Positions 4,421-64,000 of a stretch of 64,000 nt of DNA are shown here, piece after piece. This DNA comes from a virus (Duplodnaviria > Caudoviricetes). Made by a program: the position numbers and the translations under genes. The DNA lies in the IMG/VR virus record IMGVR_UViG_3300005543_000001, positions 4,833-68,832 of that record. The stretch is one strand, 5' to 3'. The notes below the pieces were generated by a model, which was not told where the DNA came from, searched no databases, and saw only the letters and a program-made list of their open reading frames with translations. Every line of letters starts with the position of its first letter. The stretch's first letter is position 1.

Positions 4421-5959
4421 TCACGCCGACATCGCGTAGCGCTGCGCGAGGTAGTCCCACCAAATTTGACGGTCGACATCCGTCAGCACCTTCCGAAAGA
4501 AGATCGACTCGGCCCACCTCATCGCAGCGGGCGTCGCGCCGGCCGTCGTAGACGCGCCGAGCATCATGGGGTAGCCAGCGTTCCCACCAGGGGCGGTGAG
4601 CCCGTTCCCCGAGGCCAGCAATGTCCGCTTGTGATAGGACGCCCACTCGTTGCCGGGGCGGTTCTTCTGGTAGTACATGCCGACGAACGTGGGGGCATTC
4701 AGCACGACTGCCGATCCACCTGCTGGCGCCACGACTGCACCGGAGTTGCCGCCAATCACCGGCAAGCTTCCGCCCGTCGTCAGGTCCAGCTTGTGGAGGT
4801 ACCGAGGATCGGTGGTGGCGGATCCGCCGACTTGATGCAGCGTGAACGCGGCTGCTGCCGTAGGCGCGAGCACGTGCCAATGCTCGCCGCCGCTGAGGCC
4901 GGATATTACGTTCGACCAGGAGAACGTCGGCAGGCTGTACTGATAGCTTTGCGCTGCTGCACCCGTGAAAATGCCCACGGGCTGATTGTTGAACTCAACA
5001 TCAGGCGCAGGCGTTGCAATCTGCCGCGTGGTCGTAGCCTGCGGCCAGAGCCCACCGCTGCCAGAAAGCTCCTTCAGCTCGGTTACCTTGCCGGCCGCGA
5101 TCGTGACGTAGTCAGGGCGCAGCCAGGAGTAAGGATCGAGCGCGAGGACTTGCCTCTCGGCATTGCTGAATGAGAAGGCGTGCGCGTCGATGCCGTACGT
5201 CTGCTGCACGTAGTCGCGCAGCTGCTCGCGCTCGTACGCGTTCAGGATGCGGCTGAAAATGAACGTTTCGCACCAGCGAAACTGACCGAAGCTGCTACCC
5301 GGTCCACCCGCCGCCGTGCTGTTGCGCGCGCCGAGGCGGAAGGGTCCTGCCGTGCCCAGATACGGCGGGTCTGCGCCAGCGAGTACGGTCTGTGACAGCG
5401 CGTTCACGTGCTGCACGTTCTCCTGCATGTTCCCGTAGAACTTTTGACCATGCCAATTGAACAGGTAGGGAACGCCGGGATAGCCCGGCTTGCCGACGCC
5501 AGTCGCGATCAGCGTTTGCGCGATGAGCGTGCCCGCATTGTCCGTGACGGCGACATACGTATCGTTGGTCGTGTGGTGCGACATGAGGTGGCCTTGGCCG
5601 GCCGACCCCATGTTCGTGCTGGAGACGACCCGCGTGTTTCCTGCCGCCGCCGTGTTGACCAGGACATGCGCGATCTCGCAGCTGCTGCCGTCGTGCATGA
5701 ACGTGAAAAAGGAAACGGGCGCATCCGAGGTCACGTGCTGCGTGCCCGTGAACGCGATCGAGGGCGCTCCATTGAACAGCGCATCCGGTGCCGGTGCCGC
5801 GATCACGCCAGCCGAGACGACTAGCGAAGAGACGCCGCCGATTAAGTCTGGCAGCGAGATCAGGTTGGTCCCATCCGTCACTGCCTGGGCTGCCGAGAAG
5901 TGGAAATTCGGCCGCAACGCCTTGGCACCGGCAGGTCGTCGGGCATAGCCGGGTCGCAT
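4421..5959 (-). CDS. Receptor-binding/fibre-associated protein with two tandem LamG/ConA-like domains
   Basis: Duplicated motifs PDALFNGAPSIAF / PDVEFNNQPVGIF and WCETFIFSRILNAYER / WAESIFFRKVLTDVDR; TGATG coupling at start. Confidence 0.65.
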   Translation of the reverse strand: MRPGYARRPAGAKALRPNFHFSAAQAVTDGTNLISLPDLIGGVSSLVVSAGVIAAPAPDALFNGAPSIAFTGTQHVTSDAPVSFFTFMHDGSSCEIAHVLVNTAAAGNTRVVSSTNMGSAGQGHLMSHHTTNDTYVAVTDNAGTLIAQTLIATGVGKPGYPGVPYLFNWHGQKFYGNMQENVQHVNALSQTVLAGADPPYLGTAGPFRLGARNSTAAGGPGSSFGQFRWCETFIFSRILNAYEREQLRDYVQQTYGIDAHAFSFSNAERQVLALDPYSWLRPDYVTIAAGKVTELKELSGSGGLWPQATTTRQIATPAPDVEFNNQPVGIFTGAAAQSYQYSLPTFSWSNVISGLSGGEHWHVLAPTAAAAFTLHQVGGSATTDPRYLHKLDLTTGGSLPVIGGNSGAVVAPAGGSAVVLNAPTFVGMYYQKNRPGNEWASYHKRTLLASGNGLTAPGGNAGYPMMLGASTTAGATPAAMRWAESIFFRKVLTDVDRQIWWDYLAQRYAMSA

Positions 5960-36654: not shown

Positions 36655-37048
36655 GGTCCGTCCCCCTGGTAACGCGCGGGCTTCTGACCCGCGGAACGCA
36701 TCTGCCTCCGAGCGCGACGATCGCGCCGGAACTTCTCCCGCTTGCGCTTGCAGTGGGCGCGCGTGACATCGAGCCGGTGCTGCTTGCCTTCCCAGTCGAG
36801 GTGCATGGCTTCGGCATCGTCGAGACGATCGGCACCGGACTGCTGCGGAAGAGGCCAAACATGAAAGCCATCGACAACGACAGCGTGAGCGCACAGCGCA
36901 CGAGCATCACGGTGAGTGCGACCATGCAAACGAATCCGAGTCCGATGAGCGTCCAGCAGAATCCGTTCATGAAGCGCTCCCCGAGCGTGTACTCAATCTC
37001 GGGAAGCGGTGGTGGTGGCGGTGGTGGTGGCGGTTTGAGCGGCATCAT
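36623..37048 (-). CDS. Membrane protein
   Basis: Poly-Pro then TM segments. Confidence 0.45.
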   Translation of the reverse strand: MMPLKPPPPPPPPPLPEIEYTLGERFMNGFCWTLIGLGFVCMVALTVMLVRCALTLSLSMAFMFGLFRSSPVPIVSTMPKPCTSTGKASSTGSMSRAPTASASGRSSGAIVALGGRCVPRVRSPRVTRGTDHEASQANQSP

Positions 37049-37076
37049 CAGCCTCCCGCGTCACGGACAAGGACAT

Positions 37077-37316
37077 TCACAGCACACCTCGCCGATAGCT
37101 ACGCGTGAGCTTGTCGAGCTCGGCAATGAGCTCCCGATCGGACAGTCCATTGAGCGCGTCCAGCTGCCGCGAGAGGCTCTTGCGCTCGGCCGCGATCAAG
37201 TCCTCGGCGAACTGCTCGACGATCTCGCTACGCTGCTCCGGCGCCGAGTGCGCCAGCCGCTTGTTCATGTTTGCGACGATGCGGTGCTGGTACTCGGTGA
37301 AGACGATGGGCATCAT
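37077..37316 (-). CDS. Hypothetical protein
   Basis: Coupled ORF. Confidence 0.55.
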   Translation of the reverse strand: MMPIVFTEYQHRIVANMNKRLAHSAPEQRSEIVEQFAEDLIAAERKSLSRQLDALNGLSDRELIAELDKLTRSYRRGVL

Positions 37317-60205: not shown

Positions 60206-60963
60206 CCAGATTCGCGGATGAGTGGAGTTGGGCACGCGTGTGGCACGGGCTTGAGTGGCGCGCGCGTCATTGCAAGGACAGCGCTCGCGAGGGGGCTCTG
60301 TCGGCTTCCGTGTGGACAGACGACAGGGCACCGCTGGGCCTCCGTCTCGAGTACCACTTGCGTAGCGGCGCGTGCGGGTTGCACGTCTGGTTGGAGGATG
60401 AGCACACCGTCACGCTGGGCGTGCAGGTGCCACTGGTCGCGCAGTTCTGGCTCTCGATCGATTTGCTCAACATGTGCTGGCGCGGACCGAGTCGAGCGCT
60501 GGACATATCGATCCACGACTCGGCGCTGTACTGGAAGCTGTTCGCGCCGATGAACAGTTGGTCATCTTCGACGCCGCGAAGGGTGGACGGCAGTTGGCAC
60601 CCGCTCGGCTTTCACATGAGGCAGGGCAAGGTGGAAGTGCTCGAAGAGCGCGATGTGCTGGTGCCGATGACAGAGCGTAGCTATCGAGCACGCGCCAAGC
60701 TCACGCGTTCGCGCTGGGGCCTCACACGCCTGCCACGCGCCTTCGATCGGGCGCGGACGCACGTCGACATCGACATGCTTGAGGGCGAGCAGATCCCTTT
60801 TCCCGGCAAGGGAGAGAACTCATGGGACTGCGGCGACGACGCCACGTTTTCGATGCACTGCCCAGCGCTTAGCATCGAGGAAGGCATCGGGGTGCTGGTC
60901 GGAAGCGTGCTGCGCAATCGACACCGCCGCGGCTGGGCACCGAGTCAAGCAGCTGCAGAGTAA
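60202..60963 (+). CDS. Trp-rich hypothetical protein
   Basis: Coupled ORF with RBS. Confidence 0.6.
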   Translation: MTRFADEWSWARVWHGLEWRARHCKDSAREGALSASVWTDDRAPLGLRLEYHLRSGACGLHVWLEDEHTVTLGVQVPLVAQFWLSIDLLNMCWRGPSRALDISIHDSALYWKLFAPMNSWSSSTPRRVDGSWHPLGFHMRQGKVEVLEERDVLVPMTERSYRARAKLTRSRWGLTRLPRAFDRARTHVDIDMLEGEQIPFPGKGENSWDCGDDATFSMHCPALSIEEGIGVLVGSVLRNRHRRGWAPSQAAAE

Positions 60964-61065
60964 CTGCTCGCGCGGAGCCAGGTAAGAGAGCTGAGCGACA
61001 CCATGATCATCGACTCGAGCCGTTGGCGAGTCTGCAGACACAACATCATCAGGGGGGGAAGACAC

Positions 61066-61764
61066 GTGGCCAAATCGATAGAGACGACAGACGCGCCCAA
61101 GCTCAAGACGCCCAAGCAAGGCACATCGAAGCAGTCGGCGGCGAGCGCATCGCCGGAGCAGCGCATCACCATCGCCGCGCCGGATATCCGGGTCGCCGAG
61201 TTTCGGATCGTGGGATCCGCGCCCTACGTGCAGAACCGCTTCTGGAACAAGGGCGCGATGATCGCCGCGCAGCAAGAGGGCGGCACCAACAAGAAGAAGG
61301 CCCGCGCGCCGAAGGACTTCGAGGCGCTGTTCGAGAATGCCAAGCACAAGGCCCCCGAGGGCTGGTGCGGCATCCCGGCGGCGAGCTTCCGCGCGGCGAT
61401 GATCTCGGCCTGCCGCCTGGTGGGCTTTCAGATGACGCGCGCCAAGCTGAGCCTGTTCGTGCTCGCCGACGGCCTGGACGAGGACGGCTCGCCCATCGTG
61501 AAGATCGAGGGCACGCCCGAGCAGCACACGGCGCACGTGCGCAATGAAACGGGCGTGGTCGACATCCGCTCGCGTCCGATGTGGCGCGAGTGGGCTTGCA
61601 ACTTGCGCGTCCGCTACGACGCCGATCAGTTCACCGCGGTCGATGTGGCGAACCTACTCATGCGCGCCGGCATGCAGGTCGGCGTCGGCGAGGGGCGGCC
61701 CGACAGCAAGAAGTCTCTCACGGGCATGGGCTGGGGAACCTTCAGCATCGACGGGGAGGGCTGA
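61066..61764 (+). CDS. RAMP/Cas7-like RNA-binding protein
   Basis: EFRIVGSAPYVQN, GIPAASFRAAMISAC, C-terminal Gly-rich loop AGMQVGVGEGRP...GMGWGTF. Confidence 0.7.
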   Translation: MAKSIETTDAPKLKTPKQGTSKQSAASASPEQRITIAAPDIRVAEFRIVGSAPYVQNRFWNKGAMIAAQQEGGTNKKKARAPKDFEALFENAKHKAPEGWCGIPAASFRAAMISACRLVGFQMTRAKLSLFVLADGLDEDGSPIVKIEGTPEQHTAHVRNETGVVDIRSRPMWREWACNLRVRYDADQFTAVDVANLLMRAGMQVGVGEGRPDSKKSLTGMGWGTFSIDGEG

Positions 61765-61765
61765 G

Positions 61766-62596
61766 ATGCCAGATCTCAGTCAGTCCGCCATTGACGAGCT
61801 CGGCGAGCTCGACCGCGACGGCAAGCTCGCACCCGTGCACGTCCTCGAGGTCGCGCGCAACCCGGGCAGCGCGCTCCATGCGCACTTCAATTGGGATGAT
61901 GCGTTGGCCGCGCAAGCCTACCGGATCGAGCAAGCCGATCGGCTCATCTGCAAGGTGCGCGTGCGCATCCTGCCGCGCGAGGACGACAAGCCGCGCACCA
62001 TCCGCGCGCTCGTGCAGTCGGCGTCGAACGAGTACGGCCGCGAGGCAAACTGCCCGTGGTTGAAGCCGGCGGCCCGCAGTGCGTTCTCCAGCGCGGCCGC
62101 GCCCGCCGTGGTTCCAGACGCACCCGCGCCCGCGCCGAAGCCCGCACCAGCTCCTCAACCTGACGAGGGCGAGGAAGAGGATGATGGGGACGGCGATGAT
62201 GATGACGACGACGATGAGGACGAGCGCGACGACGACGACGAAGACACCACGCAGCCCGATGTGCCGGCGGTCCGCCATCGTGCGAGCAGCATGACCATCA
62301 AGATCGACGCGCCCGGCGCGCAGCAGTTGCTTCACCAGGCGCTTGCCGAGCTCGCGGTGGTTCGCCGACGTTACGCGCACCTCGTCGAGCTGCGGCCTGT
62401 GTTCGAACAGTTCGATCGACTCGTGAAGCCGGAGGCCGTCGACCGCGCCGCGGATAGTCGGCTCCTCGCGACCGTCGAGCTCGCCCGCGAATACGAGCGC
62501 GCCGGCATGGACAGATTCACCGCGGCGGAACGCGCAGCTCGAGCGCACGCCGTCGATCGCGGGGAGGTACTCGCGGCGCTGCGGGCCACAGGCTGA
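61766..62596 (+). CDS. RAMP-associated partner protein with Pro-rich and poly-Asp linker
   Basis: VLEVARNPGSALHAHFNWDD..AAQAYRIEQA; ELAVVRRRYAHLVEL. Confidence 0.7.
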   Translation: MPDLSQSAIDELGELDRDGKLAPVHVLEVARNPGSALHAHFNWDDALAAQAYRIEQADRLICKVRVRILPREDDKPRTIRALVQSASNEYGREANCPWLKPAARSAFSSAAAPAVVPDAPAPAPKPAPAPQPDEGEEEDDGDGDDDDDDDEDERDDDDEDTTQPDVPAVRHRASSMTIKIDAPGAQQLLHQALAELAVVRRRYAHLVELRPVFEQFDRLVKPEAVDRAADSRLLATVELAREYERAGMDRFTAAERAARAHAVDRGEVLAALRATG

Positions 62597-62598
62597 TG

Positions 62599-63301
62599 GG
62601 CAGGCACGGCAGCGCGAGGTTCCGCAAGGCCCGGCCGGGCACGGCTGGCAACGCTAGGCAGGGCTCGGCCGGGCACGGCATGGATCGGCGGCGCAGGCGA
62701 GGAAGCGCATGCCATCGCTAGGTGCGGCAGGGCTCGGATCGGCAGGTGGCGCGAGGTTCGGACCGTCAGGGCACCGATGGGCACGGCAGGCAAGGCGACG
62801 CACGGATTGGCAGCGAGTGGATGGGCGCGGCAGGCACGGCAAGGCGAGGCATGGGCATGGGTAGGTTGGGCGAGGTCAGGCAGGCGGCGCTAGGCAGCGC
62901 AGGGATCGACACGGCGGCGCACGGCTTGGTCGGGCAGGCATGGCAGGGATTGGTACGGCGAGGCCGGGCAGGCTGGGTCGAACGGGGCGGGGCAGGTTTT
63001 GCCTCGCTAGGCGAGGCGGGGCCCGGCTCGGCCGGCGGGGCTGGGCATGCCAGCGCAAGGCAAGGCAGGCTCGGAGTGGTGAGGCACGGCCGGGCACGGC
63101 TAGGCGCGGCACGGCAGGCACGGACATCGCGGGGCAGCGCTGGGCCTCGAAGGGCACGGCTGCGCAGGCGCAGCAACGCAAGCCTGGGCTACGCATCGCA
63201 GGGCACGGCAGGCAGGGCGTGGCGCGGCTAGCCCGAGCATGGCGAGGTCTGGCACGGCCGGCGAGGCACGGTGAGGTTCGGCAAGACCGGGCGCGGCAGG
63301 C
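62599..63301 (+). ncRNA. Array of 16 NN-GGY pentamer units; putative guide RNA array
   Basis: Strict 5-nt period (GGC/GGT/GGA/CGC plus 2 variable nt); units of 4-10 pentamers separated by a 4-nt N-GGY step, mostly GGC-A-GGC. Confidence 0.85.
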
Positions 63302-63338
63302 GTGGGGGAACTGGGCTTGAAGTGATGGGGAGGGAACG

Positions 63339-63641
63339 ATGGGAGCGGCGAAGCAAATGGAACCGAACACGCTGGTGGTGACGCTGACACAGGAGCAGCT
63401 GCACTCGCTCGTCAAGGATGCCGTCTGCGAGGCGCTCAGCGCACAGAAGCATCAGCCGGAGGGCTACCTCGACACCGAGCAGGCGGCGTCGTACCTGGGG
63501 ACGACGGTGAGCAGCCTGCGCACGGCCGTCGCTCGCGGAAAGCTCACGCCAGATCATCGCGGGCAGCGCGGTGGCGGCATGAAGGGCAATCGCTTCTCGC
63601 GGCAGACGCTCGACGCGTTCTGCAAGCGCGTAGTGGGATGA
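63339..63641 (+). CDS. Excisionase-like HTH protein
   Basis: YLDTEQAASYLGTTVSSLRTAVARGKL; directly upstream of integrase-like gene. Confidence 0.8.
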   Translation: MGAAKQMEPNTLVVTLTQEQLHSLVKDAVCEALSAQKHQPEGYLDTEQAASYLGTTVSSLRTAVARGKLTPDHRGQRGGGMKGNRFSRQTLDAFCKRVVG

Positions 63642-63652
63642 CAGGAGTACCC

Positions 63653-64000
63653 GTGTCGAAGAAAGCCAAACCCAAGAGTAGTGACGGCCTGAAGCTTCTC
63701 GGCCGCGAGGCGGGCAAGCTCAAGTACGAAGCTACCCTCCGCAAGAAGCAGGGTGGCAAGCTCATTGTCGACACGACCGCCATCATCCTGGCCGATTCGA
63801 AGGCCGAGGCGCTTATCGAGAAAGCGCGGCGACTCGAGGAAGCCGTGCAGACGAAGCTCGGTAACCGCATCACTGATCGCATCGCGCTTGGCCCCGCGTG
63901 CGACGCCTTCCTTGCCACACTTCGCAAGGGCACCCGCGTCCCCTACGGCTCCCACCTCAAGAAGTACCGCGCCGCCCTCGGTGACGATCGCCCGCTCGAC
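63653..64000 (+). CDS. Probable tyrosine integrase, N-terminal part (truncated by window)
   Basis: AGGAG RBS and GTG; basic arm-like N-terminus then helical domain; follows xis; catalytic residues not in window. Confidence 0.55.
   Translation, partial: MSKKAKPKSSDGLKLLGREAGKLKYEATLRKKQGGKLIVDTTAIILADSKAEALIEKARRLEEAVQTKLGNRITDRIALGPACDAFLATLRKGTRVPYGSHLKKYRAALGDDRPLD

What the first reader, a model, noticed from the sequence alone, without database searches (positions are those of the whole stretch)
62606..62645. Array unit 1 decodes to a tRNA T-arm (a typical att-site sequence)
Seen: NN = AC AG GA TC AA CC CG AC; decoded target GTnCGnGGnTTnGAnTCnCTnGT. This fits GTnC-GAGGG-TTCGAAT-CCCTC-GT, with conserved T54 T55 G57 A58 C61 and the fixed stem bases able to pair (G51:C63). 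Known: tRNA 3' halves are the commonest attB/attP cores of tyrosine integrases. Inference: the unit could occlude an integration site or a rival attP. It does not match this phage's own tRNA-Met T-arm.
Basis: partly seen in the sequence, partly recalled or inferred. Interest (0 to 1): 0.8.

Follow-up and report, generated by a model that had tools for sequence, protein, structure and literature searches.

The report
Phage VIPR guide spelling a T-arm
The 40 bases are one guide RNA of a phage VIPR system (a CRISPR relative published in 2026); read by the published rule it does spell a tRNA T-arm, but its best database match is the tRNA-like tail of a rival phage's VIPR guide RNAs, not a host integration site.

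Summary
Observation confirmed. Window 62606-62645 holds eight NNGGY-type pentamers with NN = AC AG GA TC AA CC CG AC. It is the first unit of a 740-bp pentamer array (62597-63335). The array follows a Cas7-like RAMP gene and an accessory gene.

The decoded pattern is a genuine T-arm. In a sample of 80 exact genome hits, 20 lie in tRNA-Ser T-arms (Clostridium, Bdellovibrionota).

The att-site reading is not supported:
- The host is unknown (rhizosphere viral contig).
- The phage itself holds no matching site.
- Near-exact tRNA matches are rare in GC-rich soil phyla.
- No other guide converges on tRNA-Ser.
- T-arm-like decodings are not enriched across 80 related arrays.

The best match is different. 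With the leading junction pentamer included, the guide matches 18 of 18 positions, eight times in tandem. The matched site is the T-arm of the tRNA-like tail that ends every guide of a different VIPR system on a 63% GC metagenome contig. The October 2026 VIPR preprint already predicts guides aimed at rivals' guide RNAs. This is therefore a new variant of a known strategy. It rests on one target example, and the contest with chance is unresolved.

The parts
61003..61764 (+). vipr gene (Cas7-like RAMP). The likely start is GTG at 61066, giving 232 aa.
   Evidence: phrog_4652. More than 6600 homologues without a Pfam domain. AF2 model pLDDT 76.6. The 27 Foldseek PDB matches at E <= 1e-3 are type III/VII Cas7-family RAMPs or multi-RAMP effectors, best 8do6_E at E 1.2e-4. 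Conserved glycine-rich C-terminal motif G227-G245.
61766..62596 (+). vap-like accessory gene: N-terminal winged-helix-like domain, acidic low-complexity insert, C-terminal helices.
   Evidence: phrog_15946. A homologue lies beside the RAMP gene in 71 of 82 loci. The model of a compact homologue has pLDDT 92. Its PDB matches are weak forkhead/MecI winged-helix hits, E 0.4-2.
62597..63335 (+). Staggered vrRNA array: about 15 runs of 6-10 NNGGY pentamers separated by 4-nt AGGC junctions.
   Evidence: GGC autocorrelation peaks at 5, 10, 15 nt. Parse. The same arrays lie beside the RAMP gene in about 62 of 80 IMG/VR loci, always on the gene's strand and never on the other. Whole-unit indels of 44, 49 and 61 nt occur in sister contigs.
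62601..62645 (+). Unit 1, the finding: leading junction pentamer CAGGC plus eight pentamers. Guide NN = (CA) AC AG GA TC AA CC CG AC.
   Evidence: It matches the eight tRNA-like tails of L236 at 18 of 18 positions.
63259..63297 (+). Paralogous unit (U15): NN = GA AC GA TC AA CG GC. It shares the GA TC AA core, and a near-identical unit is present in relative L003.
63339..63641 (+). HTH / excisionase-like gene downstream of the array.
   Evidence: PF12728 HTH_17 (E 4e-5) and phrog_66.
63638..64000 (+). N-terminal part of a tyrosine-integrase-like gene that continues across the end of the circular contig (about 428 aa).
   Evidence: 60-nt terminal overlap; the reading frame continues into the start of the contig.

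Best explanation
The 40 bases are one guide (vrRNA unit) of a staggered VIPR array carried by a temperate rhizosphere myovirus.

Mechanism, as established in the three VIPR preprints and inferred here by membership: Vipr protomers coat the RNA and hide each GGY. They present the NN pairs, which read double-stranded DNA while skipping every third base. Binding blocks transcription.

Most likely target of this guide: the DNA that encodes the constant tRNA-like 3' tail (acceptor-like stem plus T-arm) of the guide RNAs of a rival VIPR system of another type. Every rival guide ends in the same tail, so one guide would place a roadblock on every unit of the rival array. On this reading it is an anti-VIPR guide.

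Shown here: the locus anatomy, the RAMP fold, the array-gene linkage, the decoding, and the 18 of 18 match at 8 tandem sites.

Inferred: expression, processing at the junctions, binding, and that the two phages ever meet.
For: VIPR membership:
- RAMP fold.
- NNGGY arrays strictly co-oriented with the gene in about 62 of 80 related loci and never on the opposite strand.
- Linked accessory gene.
- The 4-nt junctions fit the published description of 'staggered' arrays.

Target:
- The metagenome scan found L236 (63% GC) with 8 tandem exact matches.
- Each match is the T-arm of an identical 51-nt minihelix that ends a run of 10-16 GGA-NN pentamers.
- Upstream on the same strand lies a Vipr homologue (hhalign 97.8%, E 9e-13), then a 187-aa ORF unrelated to this phage's vap.
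- Adding the leading junction unit, which was not part of the search pattern, extends the match to 18 of 18. The tRNA-Ser hits mostly end in CT or GC at that position and none in TG, so they stay at 16 of 18.
- Both stem pairs that can be tested in the decoded string (51:63 and 48:66) are Watson-Crick. This fits L236's 6-bp T stem.
- There is no self-target in the phage's own genome.
- Precedent: 'vrRNA-targeting vrRNAs' whose footprints lie over the repeat/tail junction, also on VIPR-positive phages (10.64898/2026.10.15.759431).
Against: - There is only one target example. It was found by searching with the guide itself in a very large collection, using a pattern that fixed G53 and C56.
- The L236 tail resembles ordinary tRNA-Ser T-arms, so this match is not independent of the tRNA matches.
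- The leading CA unit is common to most units. It may be handle rather than guide, which would make the extra two matches a 1-in-16 event.
- 80 IMG/VR relatives of the L236 Vipr have no such tails and no site at 14 of 16 or better.
- No other guide of this array hits L236, and L236's guides do not hit this phage.
- T-arm-like decodings are not enriched across the clade.
- Two of the eight scaffolds in the unit are CGC, and the array as a whole is rather degenerate: 73 of 96 scaffolds are GGY.
- Co-occurrence of the two phages was not shown.
Confidence: 0.45

Rival explanations
1. Coincidence. Unit 1 is a normal VIPR guide whose real target is absent from the collections, most likely a protein-coding gene of a competing phage read with the skipped base at the wobble position (peptide V-R-G-F/L-D/E-S-L-V or its opposite-strand reading). 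The T-arm look is then chance.
For: - Published natural targets are mostly coding sequences with the skip at wobble.
- About 60 of 80 exact genome hits are GC-rich coding-like sites with G/C at the skipped positions.
- An 8-unit guide has only 16 informative bases. I calculate about 60 sites per 8-Mb genome at 13 of 16 by chance.
- There is no clade-wide enrichment of T-arm-like decodings (P = 0.26).
- Paralogous units in W and L003 share the core GA TC AA but differ by a whole-pentamer indel, as a codon indel would. Three of five testable copies fail the 51:63 pair.
Against: - The non-tRNA hits fall in all six frames and in unrelated genes, so no coherent coding target emerges.
- Within this window a T-arm-compatible guide is unusual (P about 0.03).
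- Both testable stem pairs are complementary.
- The 18 of 18 match at 8 tandem sites inside another VIPR array is hard to get by chance.
Confidence: 0.3
2. The guide binds a host tRNA (tRNA-Ser) or tmRNA T-arm, that is a tRNA-borne attB or a rival attP core, and so blocks integration by competitors.
For: - Exact 16 of 16 matches to tRNA-Ser T-arms exist.
- tRNA-Ser(UGA) of a soil Bryobacterales genome matches 15 of 16, and that of a Polyangiaceae MAG 13 of 16.
- tRNA 3' halves are common att cores (established knowledge).
- The published SUSP1 VIPR immobilises satellites, though it does so by targeting their recombinase gene.
Against: - The host is unknown.
- Lineages with exact matches have low or moderate GC.
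- Acidobacteriota: 13 hits against 17 for the control, with one tRNA in 251 genomes. Pseudomonadota: none in 151 genomes.
- tRNA-Ser hits stop at 16 of 18.
- No second guide hits the tRNA-Ser genes.
- The first VIPR preprint has no occurrence of 'tRNA'; the other two were not searched for the word.
- Sustained binding to an essential host tRNA gene could harm a lysogen (inference).
Confidence: 0.12
3. Decoy or sink. The guide directs Vipr complexes to multi-copy T-arm-like sites in the host chromosome, as satellite solo vrRNAs do with REP elements.
For: Published precedent for guides aimed at repetitive host elements. T-arms are multi-copy and conserved.
Against: - The informative positions include stem bases that differ between tRNAs, so only one or two tRNAs per genome would match.
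- In the precedent the decoy guide sits on the element that suffers from VIPR, not on the phage that owns the VIPR.
Confidence: 0.04

Closest known systems
VIPR systems (Vipr RAMP + vap + vrRNA), with the type II system of Escherichia phage SUSP1 as the experimental exemplar; bioRxiv 10.64898/2026.04.26.720920 and 10.64898/2026.04.26.720927
   Same: Small stand-alone Cas7-like RAMP. Adjacent accessory gene with a predicted DNA-binding fold. Phage context. Non-coding tandem pentamers with a constant GGY and variable NN, co-oriented with the genes. Runs of similar length. 4-nt junctions that fit the 'staggered, 1-nt overlapping' arrays of Fig. S18.
   Different: tblastn with this Vipr does not reach SUSP1. 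Runs are shorter (mode 8-9) than the published 9-16. No pseudoknot or other constant tail is evident between units. Many scaffolds are degenerate (CGC, GGA). Nothing was tested experimentally here.
vrRNA-targeting vrRNAs of SUSP1-family phages (bioRxiv 10.64898/2026.10.15.759431, section 8)
   Same: A guide whose predicted footprint lies on the constant 3' tail region of a rival's guide RNAs, with a lower match to self than to the rival. The preprint also reports them on VIPR-positive phages.
   Different: Here the predicted target tail is a tRNA-like minihelix rather than a pseudoknot. The rival belongs to another VIPR lineage (21% identical Vipr, unrelated second gene, GGA-NN scaffold). The footprint lies wholly inside the tail (T-arm and acceptor 3' strand).
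Satellite solo vrRNAs aimed at host REP elements (same preprint, section 7)
   Same: A guide that matches a short, conserved, structured, multi-copy sequence instead of a gene.
   Different: Those guides are carried by the element under attack and redirect the attacker's complex. REP sites number in the hundreds per genome, whereas only one or two tRNAs per genome come near this guide.
tRNA-gene att cores of tyrosine integrases (for example L5 at tRNA-Gly, Tweety at tRNA-Lys, PMC2884959)
   Same: The decoded string covers the T-arm-to-acceptor segment that such cores usually include. An integrase gene lies 300 bp downstream.
   Different: No copy of the string exists in this phage, so it is not its own attP. 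No attB was identified. The string exists only after decoding, not in the DNA.
Class 1 CRISPR crRNA-Cas7 backbone
   Same: RAMP fold. A thumb that periodically interrupts guide-target pairing.
   Different: Period of 5 with 2 pairing bases, against period 6 with 5 pairing bases. No repeat-spacer array, no Cas6, no adaptation genes.

Membership tests
VIPR system | Stand-alone RAMP (Vipr) with RRM core and glycine-rich loop | tested here: met
   The 27 Foldseek PDB hits at E <= 1e-3 are type III/VII Cas7-family RAMPs or multi-RAMP effectors. Invariant G-rich C-terminal motif. TM-scores are modest (0.35-0.5).
VIPR system | Tandem YNNGG / GGY-NN pentamers flanking vipr on the same strand, with NN variable | tested here: met
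   About 62 of 80 related loci have such arrays, all on the gene's strand and none on the other. All 16 NN dinucleotides are used.
VIPR system | Adjacent accessory gene (vap) with a DNA-interacting fold | tested here: inconclusive
   Linkage is strong (71 of 82 loci). The winged-helix similarity is weak (E 0.4-2).
VIPR system | Sequence homology to an experimentally characterised Vipr (SUSP1 or P. fulva) | tested here: not met
   tblastn of this Vipr against 50,697 phage records finds only mycobacteriophages, Gordonia phages and Cy-LDV1. The discovery paper itself needed 8 PSI-BLAST iterations, so this does not exclude membership.
VIPR system | vrRNAs are expressed, processed and bound by Vipr | not testable with these tools
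   No listed holder of the stretch is on record as RNA.
Staggered vrRNA array | Adjacent vrRNAs overlap by 1 nt with no separate spacer | tested here: inconclusive
   GGC-A-GGC 4-nt steps occur every 6-10 pentamers, and more cleanly in L007. Only the figure legend of the paper could be read.
tRNA T-arm (as decoded target) | T54 T55 R57 A58 Y60 C61 with a paired 5-bp stem | tested here: met
   All six loop bases are present. The testable pairs 51:63 and 48:66 are complementary. There are exact matches to tRNA-Ser genes called by ARAGORN.
att site of this or a rival phage | The same core sequence in the phage (attP) and in a host tRNA (attB), next to the integrase gene | tested here: not met
   No site at 14 of 16 or better in the 68.8-kb genome. 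Apart from the phage's tRNA-Met gene, the T-arm-like hairpins found in the genome look like chance hits and none lies next to int. The host is unknown.
vrRNA-targeting vrRNA | High match to the constant tail of another element's vrRNAs and a low match to self | tested here: met
   18 of 18 at all 8 tails of L236. Self hits are below 14 of 16. It is a single target locus, found with the guide itself.

The most novel reading that the evidence does not exclude
RNA-guided masking of an integration site. The guide would bind the T-arm of a host tRNA-Ser or tmRNA gene, or the matching attP core of rivals. A resident prophage would thereby deny competitors their attachment site. No VIPR paper I read describes such a form of superinfection exclusion.
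Probability: 0.08. Interest if true: 0.75.

Novelty: new variant of a known kind. Interest (0 to 1): 0.4.

Why it matters
If the tail-targeting reading holds, VIPR systems of different types attack each other through the one part of a guide RNA that cannot vary, its constant tail. A single guide would then disarm a whole rival array.

It would also show that tRNA-like tails exist on VIPR guides and are a liability as well as a processing device. The first VIPR preprint has no occurrence of 'tRNA'.

There is a practical lesson. Short staggered guides carry only 16-18 informative bases, so they cannot be assigned targets by the 80% rule in large databases. Decoded strings that look like conserved RNAs will always collect many hits.

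The locus also extends VIPR to Cluster F mycobacteriophages. In at least one of them (Donkeykong) the array is annotated as a protein.

Tried and rejected
- Rfam at gathering threshold on the whole window found only the phage tRNA-Met.
- No sigma-70-like promoter was found in 60700-63700, and the one terminator-like site lies upstream of vipr and is no more than shuffles give.
- I considered a protein-coding reading of the array (pentapeptide repeats) and dropped it. TAGGC pentamers put stops in every frame, and related phages leave the region unannotated.
- Before finding the VIPR papers I considered TRAP-like ring binding, a CsrA sponge, a G-quadruplex or R-loop origin, and Chi decoys. The literature superseded these.
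- Host inference failed. TerL is under 50% identical to any phage record. 301 Myxococcota genomes give at most 40% identity.
- No RNA holder is listed for the stretch.
- Exact-match scans of IMG/VR for longer guides (units at 62650, 62886 and 63214, and the 9-unit L003 paralogue) found nothing.
- No guide of this array matches the phage's own genome, the 80 related VIPR loci or the 80 L236-type loci above the shuffled null.
- A single-protein search for L236 relatives in IMG/VR found none. The profile search found 80, none with tRNA-like tails.
- The five IMG/VR exact hits in low-GC phages are a shared T-arm-like element that neither ARAGORN nor Rfam calls (one search did find a group I intron elsewhere in L205). 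No pentamer arrays lie nearby.

Full report
**What is at the coordinates.** Window 62606-62645 reads ACGGC AGCGC GAGGT TCCGC AAGGC CCGGC CGGGC ACGGC. It is the first full run of a 740-bp, G-rich region (62597-63335) with stops in all frames. In that region GGC recurs with a strict 5-nt period; autocorrelation peaks fall at 5, 10 and 15 nt. A dynamic-programming parse gives about 15 runs of 6-10 NNGGY pentamers separated by 4-nt steps, mostly AGGC. Two of the eight scaffolds in the unit are CGC.

**What the locus is.**
- Two co-oriented genes lie upstream: 61003-61764 (phrog_4652) and 61766-62596 (phrog_15946). An HTH/excisionase-like gene and an integrase gene lie downstream. The integrase runs across the end of a circular 68.8-kb contig.
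- The first protein has more than 6600 unannotated homologues. Its AlphaFold model (pLDDT 76.6) hits type III and type VII Cas7-family RAMPs and related multi-RAMP effectors at E <= 1e-3 (Csm3, Cmr4, gRAMP).
- I fetched 80 IMG/VR loci with homologues of this gene. About 62 carry the same pentamer arrays directly beside it. The arrays are always on its strand and never on the other, even in phages of 47-51% GC. The second gene is linked in 71 of 82 loci.
- Cluster F mycobacteriophages have the same trio. In Donkeykong the array is annotated as protein gp48.
- A literature search showed that this is the VIPR system, described in three 2026 preprints. In that system a small ancestral RAMP polymerises on vrRNAs made of GGY/NN pentamers, and the NN pairs read double-stranded DNA while skipping every third base.
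- The 4-nt junctions fit the legend for 'staggered' arrays whose units overlap by 1 nt. The run-length mode across the clade is 8-9.
- Sister contigs from other rhizosphere samples differ from this one by whole-unit indels of 44, 49 and 61 nt. That is how guide arrays are expected to evolve.
- tblastn with this Vipr does not reach SUSP1, so this is a different VIPR lineage from the characterised one.

**The decoding.** The pattern GTnCGnGGnTTnGAnTCnCTnGT is a real T-arm.
The other 60 are mostly a scatter of GC-rich coding-like sites, in all frames.
- In IMG/VR, 5 of 8 exact hits are one T-arm-like element shared by a family of low-GC phages.
- The phage's own tRNA-Met scores 10 of 16.

**Is the resemblance more than chance?** I defined a T-arm-compatible window as TT, RA, YC in successive units plus a 51:63 pair.
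- This window has two such windows, unit 1 and its paralogue at 63263. Shuffles of the array's own NN pool give 0.03 (P of at least one = 0.029).
- Across all 80 related arrays the count is 5 against 3.35 +/- 1.84 expected (P = 0.26).
- The GA TC AA core recurs in paralogous units of this phage and of its closest relative, L003. One L003 copy lacks a pentamer, so C61 disappears. The 51:63 pair holds in only 2 of 5 independent copies.
- The signal is therefore local and modest.

**The att-site interpretation.**
- The record is a rhizosphere metagenome virus, and I could not identify its host.
- No site in its own genome reaches 14 of 16. Apart from the phage's own tRNA-Met gene, the T-arm-like hairpins in the genome look like chance hits, and none lies next to int. 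The unit is therefore not aimed at its own attP.
- In GC-rich phyla, near-exact tRNA matches are rare. In 251 Acidobacteriota genomes, 13 sites fall within one mismatch against 17 for the reversed-pattern control. Only one of the 13 is a tRNA, namely tRNA-Ser(UGA) of a Bryobacterales genome at 15 of 16. None was found in 151 Pseudomonadota genomes.
- No other guide of the array hits tRNA-Ser genes above the shuffled null.
- With 16 informative bases, the 80% criterion of the papers is met at about 60 sites per 8-Mb genome by chance (my calculation). Matches at 13 of 16 therefore carry no weight.

**A better target of the same shape.**
- I scanned the metagenome collection with the pattern, fixing the T-loop invariants. 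It returned 67 stretches.
- Thirty-six of the matches are tRNA-Ser. One contig, L236 (2.9 kb, 63% GC), holds eight exact matches spaced 105-135 nt apart.
- On that strand L236 encodes three things in order:
  - a 203-aa protein whose family is homologous to this phage's Vipr family (hhalign 97.8%, E 9e-13, 21% identity);
  - a 187-aa ORF unrelated to this phage's accessory gene;
  - eight units of 10-16 GGA-NN pentamers.
- Each unit ends in an identical 51-nt element. It folds as a 7-bp acceptor-like stem stacked on a 6-bp T stem with a UUCGACU loop (-20.9 kcal/mol, z = -2.2).
- L236 is therefore a VIPR system of another type with tRNA-like guide tails. Earlier notes of this scan report such tails in other phages. 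I verified only L236.
- Unit 1 covers the T-arm and the first bases of the acceptor 3' strand.
- Suppose the leading junction pentamer CAGGC (62601-62605) is counted as the first unit, as the 1-nt-overlap model implies. The match then becomes 18 of 18 at all eight tails. The tRNA-Ser hits carry mostly CT or GC there, and none carries TG.
- The October 2026 preprint predicts 'vrRNA-targeting vrRNAs' whose footprints lie over the repeat/tail junction, also on VIPR-positive phages, and with lower self-match. Unit 1 fits that class.

**Caveats.**
- L236 was found with the guide itself.
- Its tail resembles ordinary tRNA-Ser T-arms.
- The leading CA is shared by most units and may not pair with the target.
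- 80 IMG/VR relatives of the L236 Vipr lack such tails.
- No second guide of this array hits L236, and L236's guides do not hit this phage.
- Co-occurrence of the two phages is unknown.

**Verdict.** The system is already published, and the att-site inference is not supported. The most interesting outcome is a plausible cross-type anti-VIPR guide aimed at a tRNA-like tail. That is a new variant of a predicted strategy, and it rests on one example.

Noticed in passing
L001:3965-4320 (Mycobacterium phage Donkeykong NC_051648, about 36884-37239): Cluster F mycobacteriophages carry the same VIPR trio. The 'hypothetical protein' gp48 is a nearly perfect NNGGC array. gp49 is the Vipr (phrog_4652) and gp50 the accessory gene (phrog_15946). 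Several sister phages leave the array unannotated. Gordonia phages also have the RAMP gene.
   Followed up: partly
L236:517-2604 (minus strand; Ga0315273_10180395): A complete VIPR system of another type. It has a Vipr homologue, an unrelated 187-aa second gene, and eight guides built on a GGA-NN scaffold rather than GGY. Each guide ends in an identical tRNA-like minihelix. The first VIPR preprint has no occurrence of 'tRNA'.
   Followed up: partly
L009:3899-3972, L010 about 950-1020, L008 about 990-1060: A tRNA-like element (GGCAGG...CCTGCC stem, an inner hairpin, and a T-arm GCGGG-TTCGACT-CCCGC) lies about 60 nt upstream of vipr in three loci of this window's own VIPR clade. ARAGORN does not call it. 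It scores 15 of 18 against unit 1, which is not above chance.
   Followed up: partly
window 62796-62858, 63062-63107, 63210-63260: Contigs of sister phages in other rhizosphere runs lack or replace exactly one array unit at these places (skips of 61, 44 and 49 nt). The flanking genes stay about 93-95% identical.
   Followed up: no
window 62130-62260: The accessory gene carries an acidic Asp/Glu-rich low-complexity insert (GAC/GAT triplet repeats). Compact homologues lack it, and it varies in length between sister contigs.
   Followed up: no
window 62990-63003: A small hairpin (GGCA-GGTT-TGCC) interrupts the pentamer register and splits the array into two blocks. Its role is unknown.
   Followed up: no
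window 63638-64000 and start of the contig: The contig is circular or permuted with a 60-nt terminal overlap, and the integrase reading frame crosses the junction. No tRNA-type attP core was recognisable near it.
   Followed up: partly
L002:4425-4530 and 5223-5362 (Cyanophage Cy-LDV1 BK059895): Cy-LDV1 g34 is 57% identical to this Vipr and is flanked by NNGGC arrays, so this published cyanophage also has an unannotated VIPR system.
   Followed up: partly
L204:179, L205:2409, L207:11635, L208:7359, L209:1389: Five low-GC IMG/VR phage contigs share a conserved 90-nt region containing a T-arm-like hairpin (GTGGG-TTCGAMT-CCCTC with a T:T mismatch). Neither ARAGORN nor Rfam calls it. It may be an att core or a small RNA.
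   Followed up: no
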